Positions 7,967-53,923 of a stretch of DNA of 64,000 nucleotides are shown in pieces. Both the position numbers and the translations under genes were made by a program. The notes beneath the pieces are model-generated. The model was given only the letters and a program-made list of their open reading frames with translations, made no database searches and had not been told where the DNA came from. The stretch's first letter is position 1, and every line of letters begins with the position of its first letter. Origin of the DNA: Amoebophrya sp. A120. Taxonomy: Eukaryota > Protista > Dinoflagellata. The DNA is taken from the NCBI GenBank assembly GCA_905178155.1, contig CAJINV010000009.1, positions 682,001 to 746,000 of the forward strand, given 5' to 3'.

Positions 7967-10446
7967 ATGCCGGACAAGATCTCCCGCGACGAACAGCCGG
8001 CAATCCCGGCCGCCGCGGCGTCGAATCGCTTGAAGTACCACAACTTTTCCGCGGGCCCGAGTCGTTTGTTTGATGAGGTGATGGAAAAGGCGCACGAGAG
8101 CTTCTACCACTTCGACAAGACGCTGGACCGCTTCGGCCCGAACTTCATGGAGTTTTCGCACCGCGAGCCCTTCGGCGAGGTGCAGCAGGTCATGCTGGAG
8201 TACCAGAAACTGGTCAAGGAACTATTGAACGTCCCCGACAACTACCACATTCTGATGATGCCGGGCGGCGCGCACCAGCAGTTTTCCGCGGTGATGGTCA
8301 ACTTGTGCAAGAACAAGCCGAACGAGTCCCCGCCGCACTACGTCGACTCCGGGAACTGGTCGCGGAAGGCCGCCGCGATCGCGGAAGCCTACTGCAAAAC
8401 CGCTTACCCGGAGTGGTACGGACGGAGCGGAACTTCCAGTAAAATCTCTTGTTCCACCACGTCGAAGAAGAATGGTTCCAAAAGCAGTTGCAGTAGCAGC
8501 AGCAATCTCAATCTGCCGCGCTCCTCCTCCGCGACGTCTTTCTGCTCCACAACCACCGGCGGTTTCACCATGAGCCCATCCGACGAAGACTTCGCGACTT
8601 CGTCTTCCAAAGGGGACATGATGAAAGCCGAATCCTCCGGGATGAACATGAACAATCTCGCGACCAACAACAGTTCCTTCGAGGCCTCTCCGCCCTCCTC
8701 CACCCTGTTTCGCTCTTCTTCCATCGCCACCAGCACGGGGTCCCACAACGAGCCCTCGCCGATGCTGCCGAGTCGGGTTTTTTCGGAAACCAGTTCGGAC
8801 GCGGAGGAAGAGTTCTCGCCTGTTGTCCAGATGGTCGTCTTGGAGGAGGACAAGAACGTGGAGTCTTCAAAAATGCAGCCGAAAAATAACTTGATGAAGG
8901 CCAGTAGCAAAAGTAGTGTGATCTCCGACTTTTCCGAGCAGGTCCACGGCCCGCTGTTCTGCAACAAGGACCGCGGCTGCGTCAACAAAGTCACGGATTG
9001 GCAGGTCCGGGAGGACGCCGCGTACGTGTTTTGCTGTCTGAACGAGACCATCGAGGGGCTGGAGGTGTTCGAGGAACCGGATCTCGCGTTGATCGACCGC
9101 GCGCACATCCCGCTCGTCGCGGACGCGACCTCCACCCTCTTTTCGCGCCCCATCGACGTGTCCAAGTACGGCGTGCTCTTCGCCTCCGCGGGCAAGAACC
9201 TGGGCCCCACGGGGGTGTGCTTGGTGCTGGTACGTGATGATTTGCTGTCGGACAACTGCAAGATCGTCAACGGGGTTTTGGACTTCGGCGACGCGGTGAA
9301 GGAACAAGCCGGTTGTAGTTCTGGTGCGCAGAACGTTTCGGTTTCGGAGGAAAAAATCCTGGAGTTCACCTCGCTACCGATGATGGACTGGGGCAAGTAC
9401 GCGTTTTCGAAGCCTGTTCCGAACTATCAAGAGGAAAAATCCCCCCTCCCCATATCGAAACGAAGTTTCTGATGCTGGATTTCCGTACACAAATCAGATT
9501 TGTCTTGCAGTAGGGGGCTGCAGGCATATGTCAAGCCTCGGTCGAGAGGTTTTGACGTAGGCGCCTAGCATGACAAACGTGTATGCTCTAAGCCCAACAG
9601 CATCACAAACCGCCTGCAAAATGCAGGGGGCTCTCTGGACTTGCCTTCTTGCAAGACAGACAAGATTTGAGGTCACAAATGTGCGTCACAAATTTTCAGA
9701 CGGATGCGTTTTCAATATGGGGAGGGGGGATTTTTCTTTACGATACGAACATCTACAACACACCAGCGACGTACCCGCTGTACCTGGGCTACCTGACGTT
9801 GAAGACCACGCTGGAGAAGGGCGGTATGGTCGCGATGGAGGAGAAGGCGAAGCAAATTTCCGACAAGATTTACAACTTTCTGGACGACGAGTTCGAGTCG
9901 CACGGGTTCTACAAAGTCGTAGTCGACAAGAAGTTCGCCCACGATCGCAGCCGCATGAACATCTGCTTCAAAATCAATGAGTAAGCGAGGGAAAGGAAAG
10001 TTTGCTTGAAGAAAGACAATGAATTTGGCATTCAGATCCTTGGTGGTGCTGCATTGTTTCCGAGCAGTCTCGCACTGGCGCTCTTGGTCTTGCGTTGATA
10101 AACATTTTTGCACTTCATCAAGATGAGCAAAATCGCACCTCCACATCAAGTGTTGTATGTGCATCGTTCACATTGTTCGAAGTAACCAGGCAGCATCTAC
10201 TCAAATTCTAAGAGAAACTTTGGCTTTTTTTTTCCTCAGCACAACAGCACTGCTTTCCCGGCTGCGCGCGAGTTGGAAAAGGAGTTTCTCGAGTTCGCCG
10301 CGAACAAGTACAACGTGCATCAGCTCGCGGGACACCCGGCGGCTGGCGGCTTGCGCTTCACCACCTACAACGCGATCCCGGAGGCGAGTGTCGACGTCGC
10401 TTTGGGTGCACTGACCGAGTTTCGCAAGCTCCATGCCGCAGCTTAA
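7967..10446 (+). CDS. PSAT1: phosphoserine aminotransferase; exons 7967-9424, 9751-9980, 10248-10446 (~628 aa)
   Basis: Motifs NFSAGPS, FMEFSHR, GGAHQQF, NETIEG, DATS, SAGKNLGPTG (PLP lysine), YNTP, RSRMNI and GHPAAGGLRFTTYNA. Frame is restored by removing the introner 9425-9745 plus one TSD and the GT-AG intron 9981-10247. Confidence 0.93.
9425..9745. mobile_element. introner/MITE, family A (321 bp), TSD CGAAC
   Basis: TIR TATCAAGAGGAAAAATCCCCCCTCCCCATAT pairs with ATATGGGGAGGGGGGATTTTTCTTTACGATA. CGAAC at 9420-9424 and 9746-9750. Excision gives SKPVPN|IYNTP. Confidence 0.93.
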
Positions 10447-13157: not shown

Positions 13158-16100
13158 ATGACGCCGTCCACGACAATGTCGCAGCGGACGAGAAGCAGGG
13201 TCGTTGCGCTAGCTGCGCTCTCAAGTGCTCTCCGCTTGGTTGCCGGGCAGGGACTTCCGGACTGGTTTCCGAGTCATCTGAAGGACGACTACATGGAATT
13301 GCTTTCTTCCGACGTGCTTGCAGAAGACTCCTGCGCGAAGCGGCTAGCGATGTACAAGGAGCTGTCACAAGTTGGTAAGTGAGAAAAAGACGTTTTTCGT
13401 TGAAATACGTTTACATTCATACGATGATTTTCTTCTACTTCTCAGTTTGGCTCATCAGCACCTCTTGTTAGCACCAGCAGAACATACAAGTGTAGAAGTA
13501 TGGTGCATGTTGGACCGCTTGTGCTTGACGTCCAGATCACCTTTTTGTCACTCGAATTAGTGTGCTTGGTGCTATGTCTCCTGCTCCTGAAATAACAGCG
13601 GAACCTCAAGTGGCGCAGATACGGTACTCCATTCTCGAGGACCTCGGGTTCTGCTCTCTGCGAGAGGAGGATTACCGCAAAGCCAGTGCCAACTTCCAAT
13701 CCGCGCTCTCTGAGGTGGAGACCTTTACCCGGGTTAGCGAAGTTAGCTTGATGAAAATGCCGTCGTTGCAACACTTCGCACCCCTGATATTCGAGCGCGA
13801 CGCCGCGACGTCCCTAAATTTGAAAAAATGGGGTGACGCCGCTATGATGTTGCGACGGGTGAACCTGGTCAAAGGTAAGTATTGAATTGTGTGACGCTTC
13901 GAGTTCTAGTAGCCTTCAAACCTATGGTCTATTGTGTAGGCAGAAGTGCAGAATTTCCGTGTGAGAACGCGTGTAACTACTGCTGTCAGATGCAGCTTTA
14001 TGAGATGTTGATGATTAGGGAGAAACAAGAATATGCGTCGACGAAATTTTCATATGCAGATCGCAACTTCGACAAGGAGATGAAGATGATTGCGCAGCAG
14101 CAAGGCATTGCCTCTAAAGAGGACATCAAAAAGGACTGGGACCGCGTGAAGCCGCGCGTGCTGCAGCAAATGAGCCAGCAGCCCGGCGCGACTGGGAACG
14201 TGGTTAAGTCGCACGTTGCGCGCGGAGAGCTGCTTGCCAACATCATCAACCGCATCGACGCCGCGTCGGGCGTAAACTCCTACCGAAAGAAAGCCATTTC
14301 CGACGCGAAGTTCGTTCCAGGGTTGCTGTCCCCCGATTTCACCTTTACAGCAGAGGACTCTTCACACTTCCTATTGGATGACCTGAAGGGTCTCAAGTGG
14401 CCATCGAAGGGCCTGGAGGGAAAGCAGACAAGCTTGGTACTTATGTATGGATACGTTCATTTTGATTTTTCCATGTTGATGCTCGAACTTAGTGTATGTT
14501 GATGCGCTAGTAGCAAGAACGCGAAGTAGCAAGTTGCTGCTGCATGATGACGCGATCTACTTGTTCATCAAGAGAAATAAGATACGAGGAAGATGGTTAC
14601 TTTCCCCCTTTCCGTTACTTCCAGGTTTCCCCCCGCACCGGAAAGGCCGGGGAGTGCGACGAGAAGGTGTGGCCGGAATTTTGTGAACTGCTCAAGAAGG
14701 CGAAGTACAGCTCCGACGTTTTTAGTAGCGTTTTCGGCGGCGTGAAGGTTCTCGGCGGCAAGGCGGGAAAAGAGCAGAACCACAAGCTGGAAGTGTGCGA
14801 GTCAAACGCGGTTTTGGGGTTGGTACTCTCCGAGAAGGACTTCAAGCTGCACTTTGAAGCGGATTCCGGCCGCGACGCGAAGACCGAGACGGTAGCGAAA
14901 GACACCCCGACGTTCGTGAACTTTTGTCGCCCGATTCGCGTGGAGCGCAGTTCGCCCGTGCTGTTCGCGCAGCTCTGGCACCCCGAGGTGGCACCGATCG
15001 AGCGGTCCACCATGATCCGCGCGACTGTCTCGGAGAAGGAAAAGCAGAACGATTTGGCGAAGTTGGTCAACAAGCAAAGCGACTACTGGGAGAAAACGAA
15101 GCGACAGTGGCAAACCAAGCACGCGAACCAGCATAGTATAGAAAACATCGACAGCCAGAAGAAGCAGAAGCTGCAGAAGGAGGCCGAAAAAAAGGCCGAA
15201 GAGACGGAGGAAATGAACGATATGGATGCGTCAGGATCGAAATCGTCAAAGTTGAAATAGTTCGCGATGCATAAAATGCAACGCAAAAATTGCCTCTATT
15301 GCAGAGGACGCAAGGGATGCAGATTGATTGTAAGCCTGTGCAGGGGTAGAAATTAAGCTGCTAAAGGAGCATGAGAAAAGGCGTCTTCCTTACCCAAACA
15401 GCATGAAAAACTGGATTTCAGTCCTACCCAGATTTGTCATGCGCCACTTAAAAACTAGGCGCCAACTGGTATCCGTTCCATGCATCACAAACCATTTCAA
15501 CTTAGACGATTTCAATCCTGACACTCCCATAAACGAGGAGGAGCGAAAGCGGGCCGTGAAGAAGCTCGAGGCCGAACGGGCGGAGAAGCTGAAGATCGAG
15601 CAGCAGAAGGCGGAGGAGCGAAAACAGAAGGCAGAGAAGATGGCGGCCAAGAAGAAGCAGGAGGAGCCCTGGAGAAATGTAAAGATCATGATGAAACCCA
15701 GGGGCGATACAGATTCTGACGCGAAGAAAGTCGAGACTACGGTAGAAGAATGTTGTTGCGCACGTTTCTGTAGAAGTTCAAGCTGTACTAGTACACAATA
15801 CCTCAGTGAAAGAAACACGATAGTGCTGGTTTTGTTCTATGCCTTCGTTTTCTATTTCTGGATCCTCTCCTCGTTGCGAAAGCGAACGTCACCAGACAAT
15901 GCGATAATTCCTCCCGATTTCACTTTCCAGAAACACTTGATAGACTTAGACCAAAACTAAAATTACAATACGCCATGAAAATAATTAACAAAATTATCAG
16001 CTGCAAGAAGAGATGAATGCCCTTGAATCGCTGAAGGAAGAGAAACGCGACCTCGACCGACAGCTCGAATTCGGCCACGCTTCCGAGCTGGTGAAGGACA

Positions 16101-24000: not shown

Positions 24001-26191
24001 GCGAGAAATTATCCAGCGAAAGTATCCTGAGTAAAAACGTACCCACACCATAGTCAAGATGGGGAATCGGCTAGACAAATCCACAAGTTTTGGCTGTTTT
24101 GCATGACAGATTTGGACTCGTATTGTAGTGCTGTTTGAGCTAGCTCAGGAGCATCACAGAACTAGCATACCATGCTGATTGGAGCATGACAAATTGCAAA
24201 ACATGACTATAAAATGCTTCTCATGGGGCTCCGCATGACAAACATTTTCAGCATGCAGATTTGCATTACAGCTATGGGGTGGGTACGTTTTTACTCAGGA
24301 TAGAAAGCAGCAGCTCATCAGCAAAGCGGAGGAGGAGCTCAGGGCGATCGAACTGCTGTACGAACACCTCCTGCACCGACAGCCATCAAAACCGCCTTCT
24401 AGTCAAGCAGCCGGAGAAGTAGCCTCCAAGCCTGTGTCAACCAACAAGGGCAGCGAAGCAAGCACTGCTTTTGCACTGAAACACGAAACGCGAAATATTA
24501 AAAGCGACTACACTACAGACACCGCAGCTAGTACTTCGCCACTTATCGAGGAGAAGCACCGCGCGGTCTCGCCTCTGCTGGCTGCGATAGTGGACAGAAT
24601 GGTAAAAACAAGGGATGAGCAGGGAGGAAGTTCAGCATCGTCTTCGAAGGTCGGTAACGGAAGCCGAGAAAAAACCGGAAACCTCGCGCACGACTTCGCA
24701 TTTCATTTACTGCAGAAGCGCGCAGAAAAAATCGCATCGCTCTCACCGCGCGGGCGAGTGTCGGGCTCCTCGGATGGGACGAAAACGAAAAACAAAAAGC
24801 CGAATCCAGCTGCCGAGCAGCAAGCTTCCTTCGCGGAGTGGCAGCGGTCGTGGTTAGAAAAGCGCGAGGAAAAGTTGCAGTTTCTGAAAGAACTACAGCA
24901 TGACGAGACAATTCACAAGCACGCGGGCCACGGATTCTACGTCACGCCACAGTCGGAACGGATTTTGGCGGAAAAGGAAGATCGGATAAGAACCACGGTA
25001 GCCGAACCAGCCACAGAGCAGGATATGAACGCTGAGCCTCTTGAAGGGTACAAGTCTCCCGTGAAGGATCACGCTCATGTGAGTGCAAAGTACTGGGCGA
25101 AGCGGCAGCACGACGTGCACAGCGCGAAAAAAGTCGTGGGGCGGCTGAAGACTTTGAGGAATAACCGGAAAAACAATCAGAACAACCTCGGATCTACAGC
25201 AGGCCGGGTTTTGAACCTAACAGAGAAGGAAATCCGGGATGAGGAGAAGCACCCAAAATACAAAGCCAAAGACGGAGGCCCCATCAACGAAGCGCTTCTG
25301 CGGCTCGCGCAACCGCGGAAGGTGGAGCCCGGGCTGCAGGAACTGGAAAAACACAGCGAAGTGGAGCTCCGCGCGCGCACCGCCGCGCGCAAGCTGCTCG
25401 AGAAGAAGACGAACGTGAGTGATCGCGTCTCCGAACTCTACCAGCTTGGCGTGCAGCGGGTTTCGTCGAGTTCGTCTGGACCCGATGGTCCACCGGGGAA
25501 TAAAACTGCACCAACAAAGAGCGCGCAGCCGGCCCCTTCGACGTCGTCTTCCAAGATGAACTTGAATTCGATGAAAATTCTGCAAGCGGTGGCAGCGAGA
25601 AAGAAGCAAGCCCAGGAAGAGCTATTGCTTCAGCAATCAGTGCTTGAAGCAGAAGTTGCGTCAAAGAACCGCGTTCCGGAAATTCGAAACAAAACTGGAG
25701 TGGAGTCGAGTGCAGCGAGTACCACGGCCGACAGAAATCCGCCGAGCAGCCGAGAAGTTCCCGGACCAAAAGATGAAGGCGAAGCATCACCATCAACGGT
25801 TTTTGAAAAAACTGCAGAAAAGATGAAGGGTGAGAGTGGACCTTCAGCTGCACCACATCAGCAGCGTGGTTCAGAACAAAAAGTAAAGAAGCTGCAAGAC
25901 GTTCCTGCCGGCGCAGTGGCGGTTGTGGTTGATGCGTCCGACGCTGAGGGGAAGCCAAAGTCTGACGCGTCTGAAACTGCAAGTAGCAGATCGTCGAAAG
26001 GTCGCAAGAAACTACCGACGCCGCGGAGCATTCAAGCGATGGCGCGGATGCACCAAGTCGCAGAGGAGTGGAAGCGTCGGCGTGAGGAGAAGCATTTGCA
26101 GGCCAAGTTGCAGCGGGAGGAGGAACTACTGAAGGAATGCACCTTTGCACCAACTTTGCACTCCAAGAACTCCTGGAAACGCGCCACCTGA
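21092..26191 (+). CDS. large low-complexity/coiled-coil protein (~1600 aa); exons 21092-24022 and 24308-26191
   Basis: ORFs 21092..24034 and 24434..26191 are in the same frame and join (IIQRK|QQLISKAEEELR) when introner 24023-24302 plus one TSD is removed. C-terminal ELLKECTFAP motif. Confidence 0.75.
24023..24302. mobile_element. introner/MITE (280 bp), TSD GAAAG
   Basis: 31-bp TIR with one mismatch (TATCCTGAGTAAAAACGTACCCAC[A/C]CCATAG). GAAAG at 24018-24022 and 24303-24307. Confidence 0.95.
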
Positions 26192-27217: not shown

Positions 27218-30200
27218 ATGTGGCCGTTTCGCAGGGGAAACAAGGAGGACGGTGGGGGGAAGAAGGCGTGGAAGGCCATATGGATTGCAAAAGTGTCTGG
27301 GTCTGGAAGATTGCAACTTGTCGTGCTAAATCCGAATCATGCAAAAATCTGTGTTGCATGATTACCAAAAGAGGTCCACTTTTGAACAAGTTTAAAGGCA
27401 GTTTCTCATGCAGAATAGGCATAAAAGAGACCTCACAGCCTCTGTCATGCTAGGTCCCGCATTCCAAACCTCAAGGGTCATGGAAAACCTGCATGACTGC
27501 CCCCTTCATCCTAAGTGCCATCAGCCATGGTATCTGGAAAACCTGCATGACAAGTTCACATTCTTCCAGACCCAGACATTTTTACATTTGATAGGCCAAG
27601 CTGGACGACAATCCAATGACCATGTACTACAACAAGGAGTTGAAATGCTGGGTCGAAAAGGGCAAGGAGGAGGAAATGCGAAAGAAACTGGAGCAGACCG
27701 CCGCCCCGCCGCCGACGGCTGCACAGCTAAGGGTGCCACCAGGCGGCGGTCCGCCGGGCGCGGGCAGCTCAAGAGTAGACGATGCAAGAGACGACGATGA
27801 CGATATCCTGGGAAAAATGCTCCGCGCCCCAACCCGGTCTCTGCCCGGCCGCGCCGGCGCGAGTCAGGCGAGCCGCCGAACGACACAGGGAGGCATTGGA
27901 GGCGGCCTCATCCCGGGGATCCCGGGCGCGAATCACATCAGCATGCCGAGCCTGATTCCCACGCCCGGGTCCCTATCCGCGGGAGGATCGCAGCCGGTAT
28001 TTGATAGTCTTTTGCTCATGTACATGCTTGTTTTTTTTCCCCATTTCTCCGCTTCTCAGCTTGCTGGTACCAAGCAAGATCGCGTTGATGCAAATGAATA
28101 GCAAGAATTAACCAAACTCCACACACAGGATCTGCACGCGGGCAACGATATACTTCCCGCAGCAACCGGCGGTCCTTCAATACCAACGCCCGTGCCTGTC
28201 CAGCCCTCGGTGTCGGACCCGACCCAAACGGCAGGAGCAGCCCGGCCCGCCGTTGGGGGTGGGCGCAGCTGGCAGGACGACGAGGACGAGGATGAAGACC
28301 TGCTAGGCTTGAAAGTCACGAAGAAAAAGGACACGCCGCGCCTAGTCGTCACGCCGCCGGTCACGCACGCAGAACCACGTGCACAAGAGCAAGGGCTCGC
28401 TCCGCCGCTAGAAACGACTTCTGCAGCTGCAACTTCACAATCACACGAAGTAAATCAGTACAAGCCTGCAGCTTTGCCGCCCACGGTGTCCCCCAGTCCA
28501 TCGGAGCAAGAAATGCAGACCAACAATGCGGACCCATTCGGCTCCTTTGGCGGGCAAAGTCCCAGCGGTGGAAAGACCGCGGGAGAACAAACTCCTCCTG
28601 GATACGAGGCCTACACCGCTGGTGCAGCAGCTTCTTCGTTCGCAGATTCATCGCAACAAGAACAGGGTCACGTGTTACCCGCAGCGGGGCACTTTCCACC
28701 ACAGCCTGTGATGAATGACCTGTTCGATCCACCGGCGCCAACCGTAGGTGTCACGACATCATACGACGGCAACATACCACAAACTGCTGAACAAGTTCCA
28801 ACTTCCCAGTTCCGGCCTCCACCGCGTGACCACCGCGACGATCTGCAATCAGCACCTGACGCATTGCAGGATCCACCAGCACAGCGATCTTCTTATGAGG
28901 AAGGCTATGAAAACCTGCAGGAGCATTCAGAACAGGTTGCGGGGCGGGCGGAACAGCTGGAGCCGATAACATTTGGACCACCTCCTGCGCAGTCAACTAC
29001 GGAAGGTGAAGAGGAGGACGGGGATCCTCTTGAGCACGACCAGACTGCTGCAGCCCCCGTACAAGGAGAGCAAATTATACAAGACGACCCACACGACTCT
29101 GACTCAGCACGACCAAGCGAGGCGGCGTTTTCCGCGAGACGAGTTCCGCCCCCCGACGGCTATGCCTCCTCCAGCACCTCCGGGGCAGCAAAGTCAAAAT
29201 CTCGATCACCAGCAGAGATGAAGCCCTCGGACATCGAGCTAACGCAGGACGGCGAGAATTTTTTGGCTGATGTCGGCGATGACGAGATCGATAAGTACAC
29301 CGTGGACGAGAACCACGAAGTGCGATTACGCGCCGCAACGGAGCCCACGGGGGCAGCTTCTGGATCGCACGGAGAACAAACGTCAGCACAGCAAGCGATG
29401 CAGCAACCGATTTCGATCTCGGTCACAGGCCTTGAGCACCAAATCATACATCCCTCGTCCAGTGGTAGCTCCTCGTCCTCTGCTCTGTTAAACAACAACG
29501 ACCAGCACAACAACATCGTTCCAAACAGGGGAGGACAGAATGTCCTCGACTTCACCGATCTGGACATCACAGCGTCCAATTACGGCTCGAAAAAGTCCAC
29601 CAGTTCCAAGCTGAACCAGTTGGAAGCGATTCCTGACGACGAACTGGAGGAAAGGGTGAAGTCCCTTCTCGCGGAGGACCGGAGTCGTGACGGCACTATG
29701 TTGTGCAAAAGTATCGTACTCGTACTAATTGCAAATGCGCATGACAAATCTGCCTTCTAAGGTAAAACAGCATTACAAATCCCATTTTTCTTCTTGCCAA
29801 AATTTGTAATGCAATTTATACTAGTACGATACTTTTGCAATGCATAGGCACCGATCACAAACAAAATCTGTACCAGAAGCAAAACGCACTCCACACCTAC
29901 AGCAGTTCGGTGTACTACAAACCCGGAGGAGGTGGTGGAGCTACTGGTGGGTTGAACAGCGCCACCCTCGCGTCCGGCGTGATTAATATAAATAACGTCC
30001 CGGGCTCGCTCACGTTGAACCAGGACCACCTCAGCGACTTGCTCCGCGCGCCGCCAAACACCACCGATCTGGCTTCGATCAACTACAATTCCAAGAATTT
30101 ACTCTCCTCAGCTTCCGGAGCGGGAAATGCGACTTCATCCTCAGCCGTGCTCGAGGCGGGAAGAGATGGCGCCGTCGAAGGAGGCATCGTCTCGAGCAAT

Positions 30201-33661: not shown

Positions 33662-35545
33662 ATGATCCCAACGCGGTCAGGAAGCCCGAAAACTAATATG
33701 AATTCGCTGAACCCGGCAACAATGAACAGCCAGCACCACCTTCTACTTACGGAGCAGGACCAGCAAGGTGTTGTTGACGATGCAAATCTGCACAACAACA
33801 TGCAGCAGCAAATCCCGCACCAGCTCCTCGCCCAAAACCAAAATCGGGACCACGGCGCCAGCGCGAGTCGACCTCCGGGCCCGCGGTCGGAGGTAACTTT
33901 TTCATCCGTGTCCTCAGACGATAGCTTACCGCTCGGGTGCGAGCACAACGAGTACTTCTGGATCAAGAGGTACCGAGCCTTGAAGCGACGCGTCTCCGCC
34001 AACAAAGTGCGGCAGACCGGAGAAAATCTGCAGGAAGCCCCCATTTTGGAGGAAGAGGAGGAAGGAGTACTTGCACTAGTTTTCTAACTTTGTTCTATGA
34101 AGATTAGTCGTAGTTCTTTTGCGCTGCTAGTGCTACAGAACAATAGTTTGATTTTGTCGAGCTCGCTGCCAAGGCTTACCTGCGCGTCTTGTTCCTCTTC
34201 GACGGACCGTAAATCAAAATGATTCGCAGCAGGAATCGTACACGTATCGTGAATTGTGAATACCAATATACCCGTACTACCATACTAGGCCGGCAGCCCG
34301 CTAGGCGGCGGCGTCGCAGCGGCACCGGACCAACTGACAAACAATTTGCTCCCGAACCGCTTGAAGCGACTGCCTTGTACCCGCTTCTACATGGAGGAAT
34401 CGAGGCAGGATCCCTTTACCGACTTCGTGCACTCGGAATTCCTCGCAGCAGTTGTCTCGTCGGCGGCAGATCTTCATCAGAGTGCAGCGCAGCAGACAAG
34501 TCCACCGAGCATGAATCTCCTGGGGTGTGGGATGGCCAACAAAAGCCGCATGGCGCTGCTGCGCACCCAGGACTCGTTGCTCATTTCCGCGGTAAGTTCC
34601 CGCTGGTTCGTCGTGGACGTGTTTAGTGGAATCGTGCCCACCGGCGCCGCTGTAACCCTGCAGCAACAGCTATGACAGTGCACAACTGCAGCTCCACATC
34701 CCCCTCTCATTCAAAACACACACGAACTTGCCGCTTGCTGTTTGGCAGTGTAGCCACTGCCGCAGGGTTTGCAAGGCAAGTCCCTGGATCTACTTGCCAA
34801 ACCGCGCTACCGTTCATCGTTCACGGAGTTGTATTCTTACGGAAAGCTCAGTCAGATGTCTTCCGTTGCAGTTGATTGTGTCGCTGTTAATCATGCGCGT
34901 CGAATGAGAGGGATGGGCGAAGAAATATTTGTGCACTCGGCCCATAACACCAGAGCGGCGGCGCGGGCAAAAAGAAGCTGCTCGTCGGCGTTACCCGGTC
35001 CCCGCAGCAGCAGCCCTGCGACCTGTTGGACACAAAGCTGGTCACGCTCGGTGAGGAGCTGTTCACATCACACTCCGCGGGCGTTGGGAGCAGCTCCAGC
35101 TCGACCTCGCGGGTCAAATTGCTCGTCACGCCCGCGCTCGAATCGCCACAGACCAGCAAGTACGTGCCGGGGGACATCACTGTCTTCGTGAACGACCAAA
35201 AAGTGGCGGAGAAAATTGAACACGTATCAACTGTAAAAATGTCTGGGTCTGGAAGAGTTCATGTTTGTCATGCTTGTCTGGCATGACTCTTAAATCTGTC
35301 ATGCACGTTACCCAAGATCTGCGCTTTTCTGTGATGCAGAAGCGCAGTCTGTCATGCAGAATAGGCAACACCTAGGAGCTCAGAAACTTGTCATGCTGAG
35401 CCAGCATTTGTAGCCTCATCATGAGGATGAGAGGCTACCCAGCATCACAAGTTCCCAGACCCAGACATTTTTACACTTGATAACACGGATTCAGTTGCGA
35501 TCAGGAGCTTTTCGGGCTGGCGGTGGTATCCAGGTCGAACAGTAT
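33662..35545 (+). CDS. multi-exon hypothetical protein, possibly with a SPRY/neuralized-like beta domain; 3' end unresolved
   Basis: Gln-rich first ORF, probable GT-AG intron 34592-34765, and segments KKLLVGVTRSP and GDITVFVNDQKVAEKIEH|GFSCDQELFGLAVVS joined across introner 35225-35482. Exon model is incomplete. Confidence 0.45.
35225..35482. mobile_element. introner/MITE, family B (258 bp), TSD ACACG
   Basis: TIR TATCAACTGTAAAAATGTCTGGGTCTGG pairs with CCAGACCCAGACATTTTTACACTTGATA. ACACG at 35220-35224 and 35483-35487. Confidence 0.93.
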
Positions 35546-37617: not shown

Positions 37618-37876
37618 CTATTCCGAAATTAATCGCAGAAGAATTGTGAGCCCTCTATTAACATGTTCTACTGCAATTTCTTTTTTCTTCTTCAGAAAAG
37701 CAGTTTTTCGCGTGTCAAATCGACCAGCACAAAGACAAATATAAACTGTATTCGACAGGAATAAATGTGAAGAACATGACGCGTAAGGGATGTCTCAAAC
37801 ATCTCAGTACAGTCCACAGCCAGTACCATCAAGTATACAAACAGACTCATGAAAGGTCAGAAAAAATAGTAGTGGA

Positions 37877-40800
37877 ATGATGACAGTGTGCAAAACGGGA
37901 GGCGCCATGTTGACGCTGCGTGGCCGAGTAGGTGCACACCGAGGCTTGCCAGTATTTTCAGCGGTGCCCTCCCCTTTTGGTCGTACGCCCCGTGTGTTGC
38001 GGAGGTCCACTGCGAGTACGTTTGCCGGCGTGGTAGAGCTTTTGATTCTCTGCGCAGCACTTGCGTTCTTCCTGGTCCTTCCCCCCGGGAGTGGCACTGT
38101 CAATGTCATTTTACTGCAGAAACTGGTGCTGCAGCTGCCGATGTCGGCGCTATTAGCTTGTCCTGTGGATGCAGTGCGAGCACCAGATGAAGTGCAGCAA
38201 GTTGACGCCGTGAAGATGAAGAACGAAGATGAGGAGGAGCTGTTGAAAGCAAAGAGTGCAGCTGTTACATCCGACCATACGGCCATCGGCACTAGCGGAA
38301 TCAGTTTCATCGAGAAAGAAGAAAAGCAACAAGAGAGGCAGCAAACCACTCGAGTTTCGAAAAGACGAAACAGGCACAAACGCCGTCGTCGGATACGAAA
38401 AAAAATAGCGAAGCAAGGCGAGGAGAAAATAGAAGCCAAGAAAGAGAAACTGGCGCTGAGACTCGTGCATGAGAAACAGCATGAGGGGCGAAGGGAAGGA
38501 AGAACAGGAAGAACAACCACCGGGGTTCTTGTACAGCGCAACAAGCTCGCACTGCGACAACGTGAGCGGCTGCGAAGGTTGAAGCTGCATGTTTTGGAGC
38601 AGAGGAGGGAGAGCGCGAGGACACTGGCGACGATCCAACGAAGGACACAGAAAGAGGCACAAAGGCGACTGCGGAAGCAAGCAATCCTGTTGAAGAACAA
38701 GCAAAAAAGAAAAAACATGAAGAAAGAGGAGCACCAGCACCAGCGCGAACAAGAAAAGGAAAATCACAAAAAGGCGCAACTGAAGAAAGCGAGAAAAGAA
38801 AGCACTGCGCGGATAGCAGCACAGGAGCAGAAGATGAAAAAAACAGGACGAGAAAATGTGTTGCAGGAACAGGAACGCGAATTCCAGCAGGAAGAGAAAG
38901 AACAAGTAGGACTGCCGGATGTTAGTGATTTTCTTAAACTGGGCGAAATGCCGCAATTCCCCGACATCCACCAAATGAACGACCAGGCGACGCTTGATCC
39001 TCATGAGTGGTTCAAACACGTAGACGACCCCGACAACGAACTTAAGACTGGCGAGTTTTTCAGTTGGCAAGATGACGGTGCCCATTGGGAATGGTTTCCA
39101 TATCCCCATCAGGTGCATGACTATGAAGATTTCACCCCGACGTTTGACACAGACCACATTACCTCTGATGACGACCACTACTCCATCGAAAACTTCAAAA
39201 AGAAACTTCACGGCAAAGAGATGGATTTTGGCGAGTTCATCAAGTTTATGACCCACGGGCAGTGTGACGTCGCTGGGGTGGGTATGCAAGAAAAATCAAT
39301 CTGTGCTAGTGCTGTTGTAGAAAGAAGAAGTACCTGGCATGTAAGTACCAAGCCTAGTAAATATTTTTTTTACATGCTTCTACTCTTTCTGCTGATGCAT
39401 TTTTGGAGTGTCATCCATGATTGAAGAAGACGCACCCCTCCGCACGTCGACGTCGCTCCCTAGTGTAGGATAAATGATGACGATGATCATAATACTTACT
39501 TATGTAGTGAGGTAAAGTGGGTTTTCATGTCGTCCTTCTGTCTGAGCATGACTGACGTCGTCGTGTCAGACATACTCACAATGCGTTTTCTTCACCGAAA
39601 AACAATACACTCGCACATGTTTTTTTCTTGGATAGTAGAGTACGACCCTCCTGGCTGTGACGACGCGGAATTCACGTACGACAACCCAAACTCGGCCTAT
39701 GGGGCTATTGGTGCGGGGTGTATGGGTGTCACGGAGGACCACAATCCCCCCATTGGCGAGGCTTGTCCGACACAGCTCACCGATCCTCAGCGCGACGAGT
39801 ATGCGGAAGACGGTACGTACGCTGGCGCGCACATGAGCCTGCTTGAGTCGCTGGGAATCGATCGCGTCGTCGACGATAAAAACCTCGGAGACGAGAAGGA
39901 GGGAAAGTGCAACATGGAAGATCTGAAGAATCTGTTCGAGAAGATGACGAGCGACGACGAAGCGCTGGTAAATATCCAGGATCAGGAAAGCGAAGCAGAC
40001 CATCAGGTCGAAGTTCGCGAAGACGCCCTCAAGCACGGAAATGCCCACTTGTCGCTGGGCGACGTGACGGCAGCACAGATCATGCACAATGCGGACGTGA
40101 ACGGCAATCCCACAAAGGATGGCCAATACCACGTCGACCAATTCGAGATGCAGGATTACATGTTGAACCTATCCAGGAAAAAACACCCGTCCCCATCCAA
40201 TTTGTCATGCAGAACATGCATAAACATAAACTCCCGCGCTTGTCATGCAAGAAATGGATGGGGATGGGTGTTTCTTCCTGGATAGAACCACGCGTCCAAG
40301 GATGAGTGCGAGGCTGTTGGCGGAAGCGACTACTGGCTTGTATGGGAGTGCCAGAATCGAAATTGACAAAGTTGAAATAAGGGTGCCTCTATTGCAGAGG
40401 AGGCAAGGGAGGCAGATTATAGTCCTGGCACGGGGAGGATGCTGATGCAAGAGGATGCAAGGAAGGCCCTTTGCCCTAAACAGCCCGACAGATTCGCTTC
40501 CGGTGCGGGAGAAATTTATGATCTGTGTGTCCAACTACTGGCAGCGATTTTTTATGCTTTACACATTTTTCAACTTTGTGGATTTCGATCCTGAAACTGC
40601 CATAGCAGGTCGTGAACAAATACAGGCAATCGTCGGAGTACACGGAATACATGGAGGAATACAACGAAAACCTGAACACCGCTTACAAGTCTGCAAGAGA
40701 ACCACAGTGGACAGGTGGACTGAAAGTGCCTTTTGTCGATTACAGTTGGTTAGCCACGGACGAGTCGCTACAACCCGGTCAGCAGGTGGGAATGCTTAAC

Positions 40801-43800
40801 CAAGGACACTTCAGCACGACCGGCACCGATGACCAAAATCCCATGCCTGACTACCACGACATCCTGATGGACTCACTCGGGGATGATGCGGAGCATCCCG
40901 TCCACGCGGAGGACGTTGGCATCGACTTCAAATCGAAGCCAGGTGACGGTACGGATCAGGTCGACCCGTACCAGATGACCAAAGATCTCTTCGAGCAGTC
41001 AAATCAAAACGGCGGAACGGAGATGCACGGCTGGGAGCTAGCCACGCAAACTCGAGCCCACGACGACTACGAGGAGTTGACAGATGAGTTGACAGGGGTG
41101 AACGCGGCAGACACAGAAGATAAATTCAAAGCATTTTTCAACGACCACGACTCGTCGCATCACATGGCGCTGTACCGGACGCTCGGGGGACAAGGGCAAC
41201 CAAGCGAGCACAACGTCGACGTTCTGTGGGACAAGTTGCAAGCAAAGGCGACTAGTAGTGAAAGTGTGGAAGATGTCGTTGGTCATTACATGTCCCCTCT
41301 CCTCAATCATGACAATGTGGATGACCTCCTCCATGTGGAAGGCGACGATCCGGAGGAAAGCCATGGCGTGCTTTCGCCTACCGTACCGCCGGGTGACGCG
41401 GTGCATGAAAGCATAGAACCTGCGCAAGCGGCGCCGACAGACGGGATTGCAGGCACCGGGATCTCGACGTGGACTGCCGGGGAATTGCTGGCTGTTGGTG
41501 CGACTGTTGGGGGTACTTTCTACTTAAAAAGCCAAGCAAAACGGAAAGCCAAGGCAGCGGCCTTGGAACAAAAAGCCTACGATGCCGAGATGAAGAAACT
41601 GCATACCGTGGCTGTACAGGAAGAGGAGGAACGCGTGAAAGCCGCTGCGGAGCAGGAGGCCGCCAGGTATGCGGCGTCCCCCGAGGGAATTGCTGCGCGG
41701 CTATCGAAAGGAGAAACCCCCCCTCCCCATAGCGGAAACGAAATTTGTGATGCTGTATTTGAGGTCACAAATCGACTTGTCATGCTAGAAGGCCAAGAGC
41801 CGCAGCAGTGGCCTCTTTTGCAGGCAATTTGTCATGCTGTTTCCCACTCTCAGCTGCCTCCTATCATGCTGAAGATGCAAGGCTTCCCCACGCCACCCAG
41901 CACTACAGTCCGCGTCTTTTCCCGTGTAGCATGACAAAGCTGATTTGTGACAACAAATCTGCATCACAGATTTCCGCTTTGATATGGGGAGGGGGGATTT
42001 TTCCTTTTGATAGCGGCAGAAGGCGGAGGACGAGGAGAGGTTATCCAGGAAAAAACACCCATCCCCATCCAATTTGTCATGCAAGACATGCATAAAAAAA
42101 GTCCACTCCACTATTTGTCATGCAAAACATGGATGGGGATGGGTGTTTTTTCCTGGATAGAGGTGGCGAAAAGCGCACGAGGCAATGCAGGAGAAATTCA
42201 AACCGCAGGCACGCGATGCGGCCTTGGAGGACCTCCGGAATCACAATTCCCCGGGCGCTTTTCTTCCTGCAGCGGAACAAGAAGATCGGCGCGCTGCCGC
42301 GCCTCTTTCAGTTGCAGATGAGTGGGGAACCGACGACGACGACGAGCGGCTTGCGAACAAGAAGAAACGGGAGCTGGACAAGCAGTTGATGGCGAAGCGA
42401 AAAGAGAAGGAAAAACGCGAGGGCGGGCGTGGTCGCTCAACGAGGGCAGACAAGATAGAGAAGCGTCGGCGTCACCGGAACAAGAATCGTAAACGTAGCG
42501 AATACGAAGAAGGCGACTACGCGGCCGCCAGCGCTGCATCTAGTACCTCGTCTTCGCTGCAAGTGGCAGAAGTGCCCAAGGACAAGGACGCGAAACATGT
42601 TATTGGTTCTGCAGCGGTATTGAGCCAGCGGGGGGTGGAGACTGACGATGAAGAAAATCGAGCCTCTGCTCCTATAGTTCCCGAAGAAGAAGGAGATTAT
42701 TTGAAAACGACCTACAACACGGGCGGAAGGACTGAGGCAGTCGAAGACCTCAAGACGAAGCGCAGCGGCCACTTCAGTCATAATCTAGCGCTTGATGACC
42801 ACGGGAGCGAAGCTGCAGACGCGAAACAACAAAATGCTGGCGCAACGAAGCAGCCACCGAATTTATCACCTGTTCCTCTGACCGATAAAGCGGAACACGA
42901 ACAAATGATAAGGGCTCCCAACTACATCTTCGAAGACAAAAATTCGCTGGTGGACGAAGGCGACGAGTTACGAGAAACAGCAGACGAAGTTGACGGTGGA
43001 GAGGAGAGCAGCGACGACCAGGGCGATGAGGGCGACGAGCAGGAGTTTTCCTCGGAAGACGACGACGACTTTCCTAAGAACACCAACGGTCAAGAAATAG
43101 ACCCATCATCTGAAGAGGAAGAGCTGCAGGAAGCCGAAGTTGCAGAAGTAGACGACGTGTTTGATGTCGAAAACGAAAAAAGAACGCCAACAGCAAAAAC
43201 CGGTGAAAACAACAAGAGTGCTGCTGCTGCTGCTGCACTGCTTTTCTCGACGTCCGCCTCGCAAAAGCTGGAGTTTTTGGATGATGTCAAAGTACCACCA
43301 CCAGCTTCCGAGGGCGGAAAAAGCGGTGGCTTTCGTCTCACAAGTCGCGCGCCAGGGACGGACAAATCCGGCTCAGAAGTGCACGCGCTTCCAGCCGATG
43401 AAGATGAAAGTGAAAATACTGACACGACGGTCATCAAAAGTAGGATGGGCAAATCAATGACGAACAGTGTAGGAGCTGAGGCAGGAGGAGCTGCTCGTAG
43501 TTCATCCTCAAGAGCAGAAACTAATGCAGCGGCATCTACTTATCGGTCCTCCACGGCAACAAGTCGCCCGGCTGGGGCGTCACTGCGTGGATCGAGTCGG
43601 GCCATGAAAATGCGCGACGTGGTCCTCGCGTCTTCAAATGTCGTGCAAGCACCAAACGCAAACGACGCTGCGCTCGGGGAATCCAGTTCCGAAGGAGAGG
43701 ATGAGGCTGAGGAGGACGAGCAAGATGAACAGTATGAAAGACTTGCTGGTGCCGGCAGATCGTCCCATACCCGTAGCTTCCAAAACGATGGAGACCGGCC

Positions 43801-45841
43801 GAGGCACTACGAAAGGTTTGGCATCGCGTTAGAACAAGATGAACCCGCGATTGTTGATAGCACCAGCTTCCACCTGCCCGCAAGATCCAGCACAGGAAAA
43901 ATTGCTACCTTCTTCGTCTTGCTCGTGCTCTTAGGAGGTCTTCTTGCAGTGTACTTTACGGACTTCGACCTTCGCGGAAGTGGGGCGCGATTGGTTATGC
44001 GGCTACAGGCGTTGCGGCTGCGCACCCTCGCACAGCCAGCCTTGGAGGGGGACAACAACAACATCACCGCGGACGAGTATCTTCCGGTAGCAGAATCCGG
44101 AGCTTCTCCCCAGTGCGCACAAGACGGGCGACTTGTAGTAGCTGGGGCGCTCCTCGACCAAGACGGTCGGGGACAACTACCTGCGTCCCGGAAAGTTCGA
44201 TTTGCGAGGTTTATCGCCAAGGGAATCAGCTTTGTCCGCGAATCCGTTTGTTCTTTCGCAGCTGGCGGCGTAGCCAGCGCGGGCGAGGAGGAGGAGGGGG
44301 CGATAGTTGGGTTATTAGCTGCGGCCCCTGGTGGTCGTGCAGATACAACCACTTCTACTGGGGCAGCCACAGATGGCATCATCGACGGAGAGAACTCCAT
44401 GCCGCGTTTGGAGGTCGGCGTTCCGCAGAATCATGTCAACGGAGCTGCTGATGTCCCCCCGGAGACTGTTGGTGCTGCTATAGGAGGTGCTGCACCCGGA
44501 ACCATAAACAGAAGCGGTGCAGCAGTGCCAGCGCATTTGCTGTCCGCAGTTTCCACTTCTAACCACCGCCCTACTGGCCGCCGTTTTGTCGCTGGGGCGA
44601 TCCCACGACTGAATCGCCCCCGAGCACCGGGGCGTGCCGCGAACGCCGAGCCCATCAATATCCGCCCGGCCGCAACATCAACATCTAGTACGAACTACGG
44701 CGGTGGCACGGGAGGAACTTTCGGCGACGATATTGTACTACCTGCCGGCGGCGCTGCGCACGCACACGCTAGAGGCGGTGTTCGGTTCTACCCCCGGGCG
44801 GCGCGTGGGAGAATTGCGTACAGGAACAATCAGCATGCGCTTCACGACCGCGTGAATCCCAACCGAAATACTCGAGCAGTGCCAGCTGGTTCCCCGATAG
44901 CAGGAACGCAGGAGCCAGCACAGCAAAACAGCGCGACCTCGTCTCACAATCATGGACGACAGCACAATGATCCTCCACTACAACAAGCGAATGAGTCGCG
45001 ACAGCTACGGGGACGGGTGGTAGGAAGCTACGTCAACCCTTCTGCTGCTGCAGCTGCCGTGCAACAAGAGCAGAGTCGACGAGGTCGCTTCCGACCACAA
45101 CAAGCACCTCCGCGGCGGCCATTGGTTATCGCTGAAAGAGGAGTACACGGCCGGCAGCGGCTTGTGGCAAATAACAACCAGCGGCTGTATAATGCGACGA
45201 GAGGGGCGACGAGTAGGAGTAATCCAAGCGCCGATTTCCAGAACGAAGCGATGTGCACCTCCGCTGCAGCAGGTGACCACGAGGACGAGGAGGACGAAGT
45301 TGCAAGAAACATCGCCGTCGAAAATAACTTTGTCACAGAGGACGACGATGAAGATGCATACGATGAAGTTGAAGACGAGGAAAACTCTCTACTTCTCGGA
45401 GTCGGAGATGAGCGCGATTATTTGTATGGCTACGAGGCAGGAGAGCTGGAGGATTATCAGTACGCAGATGAGGAGGACCTTGTGTTCGATGCGGGGCGTG
45501 ACGACGAGTTGCAGTTGGACTTGCAAGATGATCAAGTAAACCAGCATTGGAACGTCGGTATAATTGGAGGCGCCGGGCGGCAAAACCACGCACCAGACAC
45601 AGCGGGCTACGAAAATGGACGCGGACACGCGGCAGGGGGTCGTCGTGATGAAGAAGCTGATGGAGATGACCAAGAGGTGGAAGACGAATTTCTAGAAGAG
45701 GGCCCCGACCCCGAGCAGCAACATCAAGCAGAGGGTGCAACCGGCGTGCTACAGCGAGATGAACAAGATCATGAACGGAGCTCGGGACGACTCGATCGGC
45801 GCGCAGCCAAGAACGTCGATCGGCAAAACCGCTCTTCCTGA
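37877..45841 (+). CDS. very large acidic membrane protein (~2260 aa); exons 37877-39281, 39639-40169, 40290-40339, 40609-41701, 42018-42041, 42165-45841
   Basis: Four long ORFs and two micro-exons join in one frame (6780 nt total) after removing five introners. Hydrophobic segments near the N-terminus, at ~41480-41525 and at ~43900-43960. Start codon uncertain. Confidence 0.7.
39283..39634. mobile_element. decayed introner (352 bp), now a GT-AG intron 39282-39638
   Basis: TATGCAAGAAAAATCAATCTGTGCTAGTG vs reverse complement TATCCAAGAAAAAAACATGTGCGAGTG. Imperfect TSD GTGGG/GTAGA. Confidence 0.75.
40170..40284. mobile_element. introner/MITE, family C (115 bp), TSD GAACC
   Basis: 30-bp TIR TATCCAGGAAAAAACACCCGTCCCCATCCA with 2 mismatches. 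GAACC at 40165-40169 and 40285-40289. Excision gives YMLNH|ASKDEC. Confidence 0.94.
40341..40604. mobile_element. introner, family D (264 bp), now a GT-AG intron 40340-40608
   Basis: TATGGGAGTGCCAGAATCGAAATTGACAAAGTTGAAA vs reverse complement TATGGCAGTTTCAGGATCGAAATCCACAAAGTTGAAA. Shares internal TGCCTCTATTGCAGAGG with the 15221 copy. Imperfect TSD GCTTG/GCAGG. Confidence 0.88.
41702..42012. mobile_element. introner/MITE, family A (311 bp), TSD GCGGC
   Basis: TIR TATCGAAAGGAGAAACCCCCCCTCCCCATA pairs with TATGGGGAGGGGGGATTTTTCCTTTTGATA, with imperfect pairing extending ~85 bp. GCGGC at 41697-41701 and 42013-42017. Confidence 0.93.
42042..42159. mobile_element. introner/MITE, family C (118 bp), TSD GAGGT
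   Basis: Perfect 30-bp TIR TATCCAGGAAAAAACACCCATCCCCATCCA. GAGGT at 42037-42041 and 42160-42164. Excision gives EDEER|WRKAHEAMQEK. Confidence 0.96.
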
Positions 45842-52027: not shown

Positions 52028-53923
52028 ATGGACGTTCTCGAGGAGTGTACCCAGGAGCTGCGGGATATGGCCGAGGAGCGGGACTGGAACCAGTTTCACA
52101 CGCCGCGGAATATCCTCCTGGCCCTGGTCGGCGAGGTGGGCGAACTGGCGGAGCTGTTTCAGTGGCGGACGGACTTCACCTGCCAACGAAACCTCCCGGA
52201 GTGGAGCGACAAAGACCGTCAGAAGGTGCGGGACGAGGTGGCGGACGTGTTTGCGTACGTGGTCCGCTTTGCGGACTTGTGCGGCATTAACCTGTTGGCT
52301 GCGTTTCGAGAAAAGATGGTCAAGAACCGGGCGAAGTATCCGGTCGAGTTGTGCTATCCACAGTAAATTTCCCGTACACGTACACATGCGGTCTCTGCAT
52401 GAGAAAACTTGGCTTCGATCCTAGTTTAATAGCATGGCAAGTTTTACGCTTCAAATTGGTGAAATTTGTGATGCATGTTGTACATGTACGGGAAATTTTT
52501 TGTATTGCATATGTGCTACGGTAAAAGCACCAAGTACAACGAACTGGAGGCTGCCGAGCGACGGGTAGATAGATCACCGTCTGTTCTTGTCGAAAATCAA
52601 GCACTACAACCCCACACAGGAATAGGGCTTAAGCTTATAGTACCTCCGTCGAAAAATGATAATTATACGACGAGCCCTGCTGGCGTGCCAAACCCGCAAT
52701 CGAATGTGGCTGCTTCGTCCAGACAGCCCCCGAAACCCCCTACGGTGCAAAAACGGAAAAATAATCTGGAATCAAACAATTTCGGCGCACACCAGCTCGG
52801 CGGCGCCATGGCTATTCCAACAACATCAGGATCACCAGCAGCGAGTAGTGGCAAAATAAATGGGACGAATACCAACCCGAATAAAAGCATTACGTTCGAA
52901 GACATTTGCGCCACCAAATCCGCAAACAGGTCAAGCAACGTCAATGCGAATGGCACTTTCACCGGTGGCGGCAGTGCCACTGCGAGACCAGGTCATCAAA
53001 ACCCAAACACTTCTTTTCAGCCGCATCCCGGGGGAATTGTGGACCCCGGCTCCGCGACGACGGTGGCAGTGCGGTTCGGGGACGTAGCCGGTGCCGGGTA
53101 TTCTGCTTTTTCTGCCTCAAGTTCCTCGCCTCACACCGGAGGTCCTCCGCAGCACCTTGCTCCTCCCGGCGCCATGTTCAAGAATCAACGTGATCTGCAG
53201 ATGAAACCTTCCCCCCTTTCACGCGTGCCCGTCTTGCAACCACCGCCAAGCAACCGACTCGCAGGTAGAGGGCAGAATGCCGTGGGACGATCGTCCTCGT
53301 CCTCCTCATCCTCGGCGGGTGAGGCTTCTGGGGTGAACGGAACCGCCTCGCAAAAGGGCGCGGAGGAGTCATCTCGTCAATCCTCTTCTTCCCGGTCAGG
53401 AAACGAGGAATCAAGAGGGACAGGTGCTTGTTTGAAGAGCGGTGCAGCAGCAACGAGCACGGTTGGGCGTGCGGGCCGGGGTTCAGGGAGCTTCGGGCGG
53501 TTTGTGGAGCAGCGCCAGCAGAAGCAGCAGTTTCTGCCCGAGCCACCCCCACCCATGATAGTGCCTCCAGGACAAAGTGGAGCCACGGCACTTGAAACGC
53601 CCGTAATTGAACCGGTCAAAACGAATAACCCGTTTCTGGAGGATGTCACAGTTGAGGCATTTTCGAGCGACGAATTAGGTGTTGATCGGGGTCGGGGAGT
53701 GACGAAAAATTCCAGCACCTACAACATGGACAGGACGATCCACTGCGAGCAGGAGATTGAAGAAGGAACCACTGGTGCCAGTGGAGAAAAACGCCAGCGA
53801 ACGACAGTCACAAGACCGATTGCCCCAGCTAGTAGTGCTGTTGCCGCCCAGGATCTTCCCGGGTCTGTGTCGATGTATGGCGTGCCTGGGAGGGGGCCGT
53901 GCGGTCCGTCGTCGCAGGCCTAG
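52028..53923 (+). CDS. DCTPP1: dCTP pyrophosphatase 1 (MazG-like) with long low-complexity C-terminal extension; exons 52028-52354 and 52517-53923
   Basis: ERDWNQFHTPRNILLALVGEVGELAELFQW...DEVADV...KNRAKYPVELC|YGKSTKY. An upstream exon is possible. Confidence 0.88.
52355..52511. mobile_element. introner/MITE (157 bp), TSD TGTGC
   Basis: Imperfect TIR TATCCACAGTAAATTTCCCGTACACGTACA vs reverse complement TATGCAATACAAAAAATTTCCCGTACATGTACA. TGTGC at 52350-52354 and 52512-52516. Confidence 0.88.

What the first reader, a model, noticed from the sequence alone, without database searches (positions are those of the whole stretch)
9420..52516. Twelve TIR/5-bp-TSD introners inside coding sequence that must be removed, mostly without GT-AG ends
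Seen: elements at 9425, 15221, 24023, 27279, 29697, 35225, 39283, 40170, 40341, 41702, 42042 and 52355 all begin TAT[C/G], end [C/G]ATA, have TIRs and are flanked by 5-bp duplications. All lie within genes; I found none intergenic. Each introduces a stop or frameshift, including those whose removed length is a multiple of 3. Deleting element plus one TSD restores the frame, and restores conserved motifs in PSAT (PN|IYNTP) and DCTPP1 (YPVELC|YGKSTKY). For the ten copies with perfect TSDs, no sliding register of precise excision gives GT-AG. Established: IR/DR-bounded non-canonical introners are reported from Amoebophrya, and to my knowledge their splicing mechanism and transposase are unresolved. 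Inference: the TIR hairpin, not splice dinucleotides, defines the boundaries, implying a relaxed spliceosome or a second excision pathway.
Basis: partly seen in the sequence, partly recalled or inferred. Interest (0 to 1): 0.9.

Follow-up and report, generated by a model that had tools for sequence, protein, structure and literature searches.

The report
Known Amoebophrya hairpin introners, RNA-confirmed
Twelve short transposon copies sit inside the protein-coding genes of a marine parasite, and five are seen cut out cleanly in public sequence that is likely RNA, two without normal splice signals; this class is already published, and the cut is likely positioned by the element's hairpin.

Summary
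The twelve elements are real: TAT…ATA ends, 25–30-bp TIRs, 5-bp TSDs (10 perfect), all in + strand coding sequence, all giving a premature stop if kept. They are the published Amoebophrya A120 introner elements (PMC7789003: IR starts TAT, then an A run; 5-bp DRs). A window protein is 100% identical to an A120 protein. Contigs of probable RNA runs join 5 of the 9 laid elements by removing element+5 nt; 24023 and 40170 have no GT/GC-AG register. One reader claim fails: 42042 has a GT-AG register, and 27279 and 29697 have GC-AG. New here: at 24023 an in-frame GT-AG intron 3 nt shorter is available but unused. The two copies with decayed TSDs are cut GT-AG at one shared register (1 nt before TAT, 4 nt after ATA). 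In a related assembly, families sit in both orientations, 172/225 have exact 5-bp TSDs and 8/136 offer GT-AG. Best reading: a U1-less spliceosome guided by the TIR stem (inferred). Genome-wide drift to GT-AG was not supported. No transposase found. Known class; mechanism still open.

The parts
9425..9745 (+). Introner, 321 bp, TSD CGAAC, in phosphoserine aminotransferase; no GT/GC-AG register; family with 41702
15221..15531 (+). Introner, 311 bp, TSD AACGA; no GT/GC-AG register; family with 40341
24023..24302 (+). Introner, 280 bp, TSD GAAAG; 285 nt removed; no GT/GC-AG register; in-frame GT-AG option 24022-24303 unused
   Evidence: X3 record 9 and X8 record 12 join 24017|24303, 0 differences
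27279..27593 (+). Introner, 315 bp, TSD GGCCA, about 19 codons after an ATG at 27218; GC-AG register possible; family with 35225
   Evidence: X3 record 10 resumes at 27593 with 349 nt upstream not listed (unresolved)
29697..29846 (+). Introner, 150 bp, TSD GGCAC; 155 nt removed; GC-AG register possible
   Evidence: X3 record 10 and X8 record 14 join 29691|29847
35225..35482 (+). Introner, 258 bp, TSD ACACG; no GT/GC-AG register
   Evidence: laid, no join listed
39283..39634 (+). Decayed introner, 352 bp, TSD GTGGG/GTAGA; removed as GT-AG intron 39282-39638
   Evidence: X5, one contig, skips 357, GT..AG, 39 nt on the short side
40170..40284 (+). Introner, 115 bp, TSD GAACC; 120 nt removed; no GT/GC-AG register and no in-frame GT-AG within 30 nt; family with 42042
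   Evidence: X3 and X4 (one sample) join 40164|40285
40341..40604 (+). Decayed introner, 264 bp, TSD GCTTG/GCAGG; removed as GT-AG intron 40340-40608
   Evidence: X3 and X4 join 40339|40609
41702..42012 (+). Introner, 311 bp, TSD GCGGC; no GT/GC-AG register of precise removal; followed by a 29-nt stretch before the next element
   Evidence: laid, no join listed
42042..42159 (+). Introner, 118 bp, TSD GAGGT; has a GT-AG register (42040-42162)
   Evidence: X4 record 14 starts at 42159 with an 8-nt loose end equal to the upstream exon (weak)
52355..52511 (+). Introner, 157 bp, TSD TGTGC, in a dCTP pyrophosphatase (MazG-like) gene; no GT/GC-AG register
37853..45841 (+). Host open frame of 2267 codons that exists only after five elements are removed; no Pfam family on its pieces

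Best explanation
These are non-autonomous TIR (MITE-like) transposon copies with 5-bp target duplications inside Amoebophrya exons; five are seen removed with one duplicate in likely-RNA contigs, probably by a U1-less spliceosome that the TIR hairpin likely positions 1 nt before TAT and 4 nt after ATA. Shown: anatomy, need for removal, element+5 nt joins in probable-RNA contigs, presence in DNA, both orientations. Inferred: DNA cut-and-paste spread by an unidentified transposase with a 5-nt staggered cut; spliceosomal chemistry; one fixed register for perfect-TSD copies, where cDNA cannot show the register. Because the TIR reads alike from either end, any insertion in either orientation and any phase leaves one target copy and the original protein. 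Old copies can gain GT and AG at that register and become ordinary introns (two cases here).
For: Joins removing element+5 nt at 24023, 29697 (two samples), 39283, 40170 and 40341 (one sample); the same runs skip ordinary GT-AG introns 27997-28128 and 30408-30675. At 24023 the GT-AG intron 24022-24303 is in frame, so nonsense decay would not remove its product, yet both contigs show the 285-nt removal. At 39283 and 40341 the joins fit registers 3-4 and 4-6; the only shared one is register 4, and it is GT-AG. I noted this expectation before laying. In both, the nearer AG of ATA|G is skipped, and all four TSD substitutions lie on the intron side and form GT or AG. All nine commonest A120 non-canonical pairs in PMC7789003 Table S4 are NT-NN, as N+TAT gives. 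In a related assembly: 172 of 225 TIR elements found without looking at flanks have an exact 5-bp TSD (4 bp: 2; 6 bp: 0); 61 of 76 with clear frames on both sides need one TSD copy kept (p 6e-17); 35225-like copies lie 15 sense and 16 antisense; only 8 of 136 perfect-TSD copies offer GT-AG in any register. PMC7789003 reports 83 of 89 spliceosomal proteins present and U1 not detected.
Against: The register is directly seen in only two copies, both GT-AG, which any spliceosome would cut there. In the related assembly the 30 imperfect-TSD copies show no clear drift to GT-AG at register 4: new right-side AG in 3, the reverse in 1; position-5 G 39 versus mirror C 35 among 136 perfect copies. That sample is biased to young copies. 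42042 offers GT-AG at register 3, and 27279 and 29697 GC-AG at register 1, so sliding cannot be excluded. Table S4 pairs depend on how the aligner places ambiguous joins. All joins come from cDNA contigs that drop rare forms, three of them at depth 3.6-4.5 in one sample, and the RNA label of these runs is a guess. No lariat data. No transposase in the window.
Confidence: 0.6

Rival explanations
1. A second, non-spliceosomal pathway (hairpin-recognising nuclease plus RNA ligase, or a euglenid-like route giving circles) removes the non-canonical copies, while GT-AG copies pass to the spliceosome.
For: No dinucleotide need at 24023 and 40170; both orientations work; the stem hides any U-tract; euglenid TIR/TSD introns leave as circles by an unknown route (PMC11282704, section 6).
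Against: The two decayed copies became GT-AG introns with the same net removal, which is simplest if one machine handles both. There is a 5'/3' asymmetry in gene orientation (TATC..CATA 39 versus TATG..GATA 18, p 0.008) that a symmetric stem cutter does not predict, though families are not independent.
Confidence: 0.22
2. The spliceosome is relaxed and slides within the TSD to the best available dinucleotides; there is no fixed register.
For: 42042 (GT-AG, register 3) and 27279/29697 (GC-AG, register 1) offer better pairs off register 4; PMC7789003 Fig. 3 legend calls the splice sites variable relative to the hairpin.
Against: A dinucleotide-seeking machine should take the in-frame GT-AG at 24023 and the nearer TAG at 39283; the contigs show neither.
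Confidence: 0.1
3. The joins are reverse-transcriptase template switches across a hairpin between direct repeats ('falsitrons').
For: Hairpin plus direct repeat is the recalled recipe; PMC8240250 (abstract only) shows cDNA-only false introns; PMC7789003 main text has no hit for template switching, lariat or RT-PCR.
Against: Retention stops all 12 frames, yet the frames and conserved motifs are intact. The join at 39283 uses a 1-nt overlap at GT-AG and not the 2-nt shared TSD prefix.
Confidence: 0.04
4. The elements are cut out of the DNA (like ciliate IESs), or the host genes are pseudogenes.
For: TA-starting, transposon-derived, exon-interrupting inserts recall IESs (recalled).
Against: DNA-like runs carry them: X1 contigs run from unique flanks about 25 nt into elements at depth 41-47 (its joint table showed 15 of 610 rows); X6 contigs cross exon-element borders at 39283, 40170 and 40341 with no joined form. 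Host genes are covered by spliced contigs.
Confidence: 0.04

Closest known systems
Amoebophrya A120 introner elements (Farhat et al. 2021, PMC7789003; read: passages, sections 11 and 12, supplement passages and part 3)
   Same: IR starting TAT, about seven variable nt, then three or more A; 3-5-nt DRs (5 bp in Fig. S19 legend); hairpin; non-canonical ends confirmed by RNA-seq; no internal transposase. Window protein 100% identical over residues 400-574 to a protein labelled Amoebophrya sp. A120.
   Different: No difference in kind. The paper leaves the border position unknown or variable; this work points to one register and shows an unused in-frame GT-AG.
A120 introner families in Gozashti et al. 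2025 (PMC12130899; read: passages, supplement file 8 parts 15-16, 32 of 58 A120 rows)
   Same: Mostly 'TIR DNA, superfamily Unknown', lengths about 150-320 bp, TIR about 30 bp, about half of annotated ends non-canonical.
   Different: No sequence was seen, so window copies were not matched to named families. Family 38 has an LTR-related ORF inside TIRs, a transposase lead not tested here.
IS3EU DNA transposons (PMC12730594, passages)
   Same: TAY..RTA termini, TIR over 30 bp; three window copies begin TATGG.
   Different: IS3EU makes 6-bp TSDs; here 5 bp in 172 of 225 and 6 bp in none. No transposase seen.
Fritillaria borealis non-canonical introns and euglenid nonconventional introns (via review PMC11282704, section 6)
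   Same: TIR- and TSD-bounded, MITE-derived introns without GT-AG.
   Different: Fritillaria favours AG-AC/AG-AT ends and uses its spliceosome; euglenid ones leave as circles. Neither pathway is shown for Amoebophrya.

Membership tests
Amoebophrya A120 introner elements | IR begins TAT, variable stretch, then 3 or more A | tested here: met
   TAT at both ends in 12 of 12; the motif scan with the A run hit 9 of 12 5' ends and 9 of 12 3' ends
Amoebophrya A120 introner elements | 3-5-nt direct repeats at the exon/intron border | tested here: met
   10 exact, 2 with two differences
Amoebophrya A120 introner elements | Removed from RNA, often without GT-AG | tested here: met
   5 of 9 laid elements joined; 2 of the 5 lack any GT/GC-AG register
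Amoebophrya A120 introner elements | Repeated in the genome | tested here: met
   four family pairs in the window; element bins at summed depth 4e3-1.6e5 against about 45 for flanks in X1, not a copy number; 39283 is near flank depth
Amoebophrya A120 introner elements | Host is Amoebophrya | tested here: met
   P0001, 100% identity, labelled Amoebophrya sp. A120; next hit labelled A25
MITE (non-autonomous TIR transposon) | Short, TIRs, fixed-length TSD, no coding capacity | tested here: met
   115-352 bp; TSD 5 bp in 172 of 225 related copies
MITE (non-autonomous TIR transposon) | Autonomous partner with the same TIRs and a transposase | tested here: inconclusive
   no long TAT..ATA element in the window; no whole genome held
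IS3EU | TAY..RTA termini | tested here: met
   TAT..ATA
IS3EU | 6-bp TSD | tested here: not met
   0 of 225 with 6 bp; not filed as IS3EU
IS3EU | IS3-like DDE transposase | not testable with these tools
   no autonomous copy in hand
U2-type spliceosomal intron | GT/GC-AG ends | tested here: not met
   possible in 5 of 12, absent in 7 of 12
U2-type spliceosomal intron | Lariat excision, U2/U6 dependence | not testable with these tools
   no raw reads of this strain covered the host genes
Euglenid nonconventional intron | Excision as full-length circles | not testable with these tools
   needs RNase R or circular RT-PCR

The most novel reading that the evidence does not exclude
Amoebophrya non-canonical introners are not variably spliced: the TIR stem acts as a ruler that replaces U1 and AG scanning, fixing the cut 1 nt upstream of TAT and 4 nt downstream of ATA even when a proper GT-AG lies 3 nt away, so any insertion is protein-neutral and aged copies mature into ordinary GT-AG introns at that register.
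Probability: 0.45. Interest if true: 0.7.

Novelty: already known. Interest (0 to 1): 0.33.

Why it matters
The class is published, so the finding itself is ordinary for this genome. The open question is how tens of thousands of introns without GT-AG are spliced in an organism where U1 was not detected. The window offers named test cases: 24023 (unused in-frame GT-AG), 40170 (no canonical option) and 39283/40341 (converted to GT-AG at one register). If a stem sets the register, it would be a structure-guided form of spliceosomal site choice and a route from transposon to ordinary intron.

Tried and rejected
Whole-genome search for an autonomous copy: no genome held, and the records behind the loci are not searchable, so the transposase stays open. 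No long TAT..ATA element up to 25 kb in the window. One TIR pattern in viral contigs: 0 matches. Rfam on the window: 0. No join listed for 35225 or 41702: low cover, no evidence either way. Drift of TSDs toward GT-AG in the related assembly: not supported. The idea that TATG mimics a GTATG donor: rejected, since TATG is rarer at the 5' end (42 of 166) than at the 3' end (63 of 166). A branch-point-like peak 20-29 nt from the end is symmetric and comes from my search seed. Donor 6-mer counts by strand were uninformative. Nine loci from other assemblies held no element. Rows dropped: 17 of 225 with 3 or more TSD mismatches (some are mis-paired ends), 42 of 208 with unclear strand, 90 of 166 without clear frames on both sides. 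Literature: searches found no paper fixing the register or the pathway; Roy et al. 2023 Curr Biol is not held and figures of supplements could not be seen, so either may already say it. Earlier scan findings: none.
Full report
Observation. A scan for TAT..ATA with 5-bp flanking repeats and matching ends found nine elements at TIR identity of 18/30 or more, against none in 20 Markov-shuffled windows. A gapped score added 39283-39634, 40341-40604 and 52355-52511. Ten TSDs are exact and two differ at two bases. All fold into long hairpins (z -5.5 to -18.2). Four family pairs exist within the window: 9425/41702, 15221/40341, 27279/35225 and 40170/42042.

Genes. All hosts are on the + strand. Removing element plus 5 nt restores the frame, and retention gives a stop, in 12 of 12. 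Five removals rebuild one 2267-codon frame. The two halves of the PSAT gene match consecutive parts of solved PSATs. The predicted join is identical to public protein P0001 over 120 residues and has no indel against orthologues. P0001 is labelled Amoebophrya sp. A120.

Registers. 27279 and 29697 have GC-AG registers. Seven copies (9425, 15221, 24023, 35225, 40170, 41702, 52355) have neither.

RNA. Two lays covered nine elements. Contigs of runs guessed to be RNA join 24017|24303 and 29691|29847 in two samples with no differences. They join 39280|39638, 40164|40285 and 40339|40609 in one sample at depth 3.6-4.5. Each join removes element plus 5 nt. The same runs skip ordinary GT-AG introns, so they behave as spliced RNA. 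DNA-like runs X1 and X6 carry the elements at their borders. Contigs drop rare forms, so minor isoforms are not excluded.

What sets the cut. At 24023 the TSD GAAAG offers an in-frame GT-AG intron 3 nt shorter than precise removal; both contigs show precise removal, which has no canonical register. Where the TSD has decayed, the register can be read: 39283 fits registers 3-4 and 40341 fits 4-6, so the shared one is 4, from the last base of the left TSD to the fourth base of the right TSD. It is GT-AG in both, the nearer AG of ATA|G is passed over, and all four TSD substitutions are intron-side and build GT or AG. These two have the lowest TIR identity of the eleven scored (17 and 19 of 25), as older copies would. 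The nine commonest non-canonical pairs reported for A120 are all NT-NN (PMC7789003 Table S4), as N+TAT predicts, though aligner choice affects that table.

Wider sample. An 18-nt TIR seed gave 153 metagenome loci, 144 from one assembly (JACKZZ01 contigs), with the same families at about 82-95% identity. Of 225 TIR elements found without regard to flanks, 172 have exact 5-bp TSDs. Of 76 with clear frames on both sides, 61 need one TSD copy kept. Families lie in both orientations to the gene. Only 8 of 136 perfect-TSD copies offer GT-AG in any register, and G at TSD position 5 is not enriched (39 versus 35 mirror C). Against my reading, the 30 imperfect copies show no clear drift to GT-AG at register 4 (3 gains of right-side AG versus 1 reverse); the sample is biased to young copies and strand was inferred by a codon model. 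A 5'/3' asymmetry at position 4 (39 versus 18, p 0.008) is unexplained.

Mechanism. Spread by DNA cut-and-paste with a 5-nt stagger is inferred from TIRs and TSDs; the enzyme was not found. The termini resemble IS3EU (TAYGG..CCRTA) but that family makes 6-bp TSDs (PMC12730594), so it is a lead only. For removal I favour the resident spliceosome, guided by the stem at a fixed register (0.6): PMC7789003 reports nearly all spliceosomal proteins, no U1 and no minor spliceosome, and two copies have become GT-AG introns with the same net removal. A second pathway (0.22), sliding (0.1), cDNA artefact (0.04) and DNA excision or pseudogenes (0.04) are the rivals.

Known status. PMC7789003 section 11 describes A120 introner IRs as TAT, seven variable nt and an A run, with 3-5-nt DRs and 29,850 copies, and leaves the border position unknown. 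PMC12130899 lists 58 A120 families; the 32 rows I read are mostly TIR DNA of unknown superfamily. The finding is therefore already known. The register argument was not found, but Roy et al. 2023 and supplementary figures could not be read.

Verdict. Real, partly RNA-confirmed, already described; one sub-claim wrong; the mechanism remains open and is made somewhat more testable. Interest 0.33.

Noticed in passing
window 36964-37637: A 20-bp direct repeat (at 36964 and 37618) flanks a roughly 630-bp insert ending in (GATAC)n and (CT)n tracts, between genes. It is repeated in X1 (bins at depth 210-260 against about 45) and is 75-77% like L009/L010. It looks like a SINE-type retroposon with a long TSD.
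   Followed up: partly
window 46499-48742 (+): Reverse transcriptase frame (Pfam RVT_1, E 2.8e-24) with one in-frame stop at 47414-47416 and a C2H2-like motif downstream; likely a non-LTR retrotransposon remnant between genes.
   Followed up: no
window 42013-42041: Only 29 nt separate elements 41702 and 42042, leaving about 24 nt of exon; five elements sit within 2.9 kb of one gene.
   Followed up: partly
L075:1819-2098: A 24023-family copy with an 8-bp, not 5-bp, flanking duplication; a few others (L056:1804, L080:2389, L150:79) have good TIRs but no TSD.
   Followed up: no
related loci, 166 stranded copies: In gene orientation TATC..CATA outnumbers TATG..GATA 39 to 18, and departures from C/G at position 4 are 7 at the 3' end against 1 at the 5' end; unexplained.
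   Followed up: partly
run X9 on window 27289-27365: A raw RNA run that does not cover the host genes has reads of the 27279 family at 90-95% identity, so the family occurs in another strain and some copies are present in its RNA reads.
   Followed up: no
whole window: All identified genes and nearly all long frames are on the + strand (PSAT, DGAT-like 49392, dCTPase 52016, glycosyltransferase 54495, NAD-dependent epimerase-like 56820), as in the unidirectional clusters reported for Amoebophrya.
   Followed up: no
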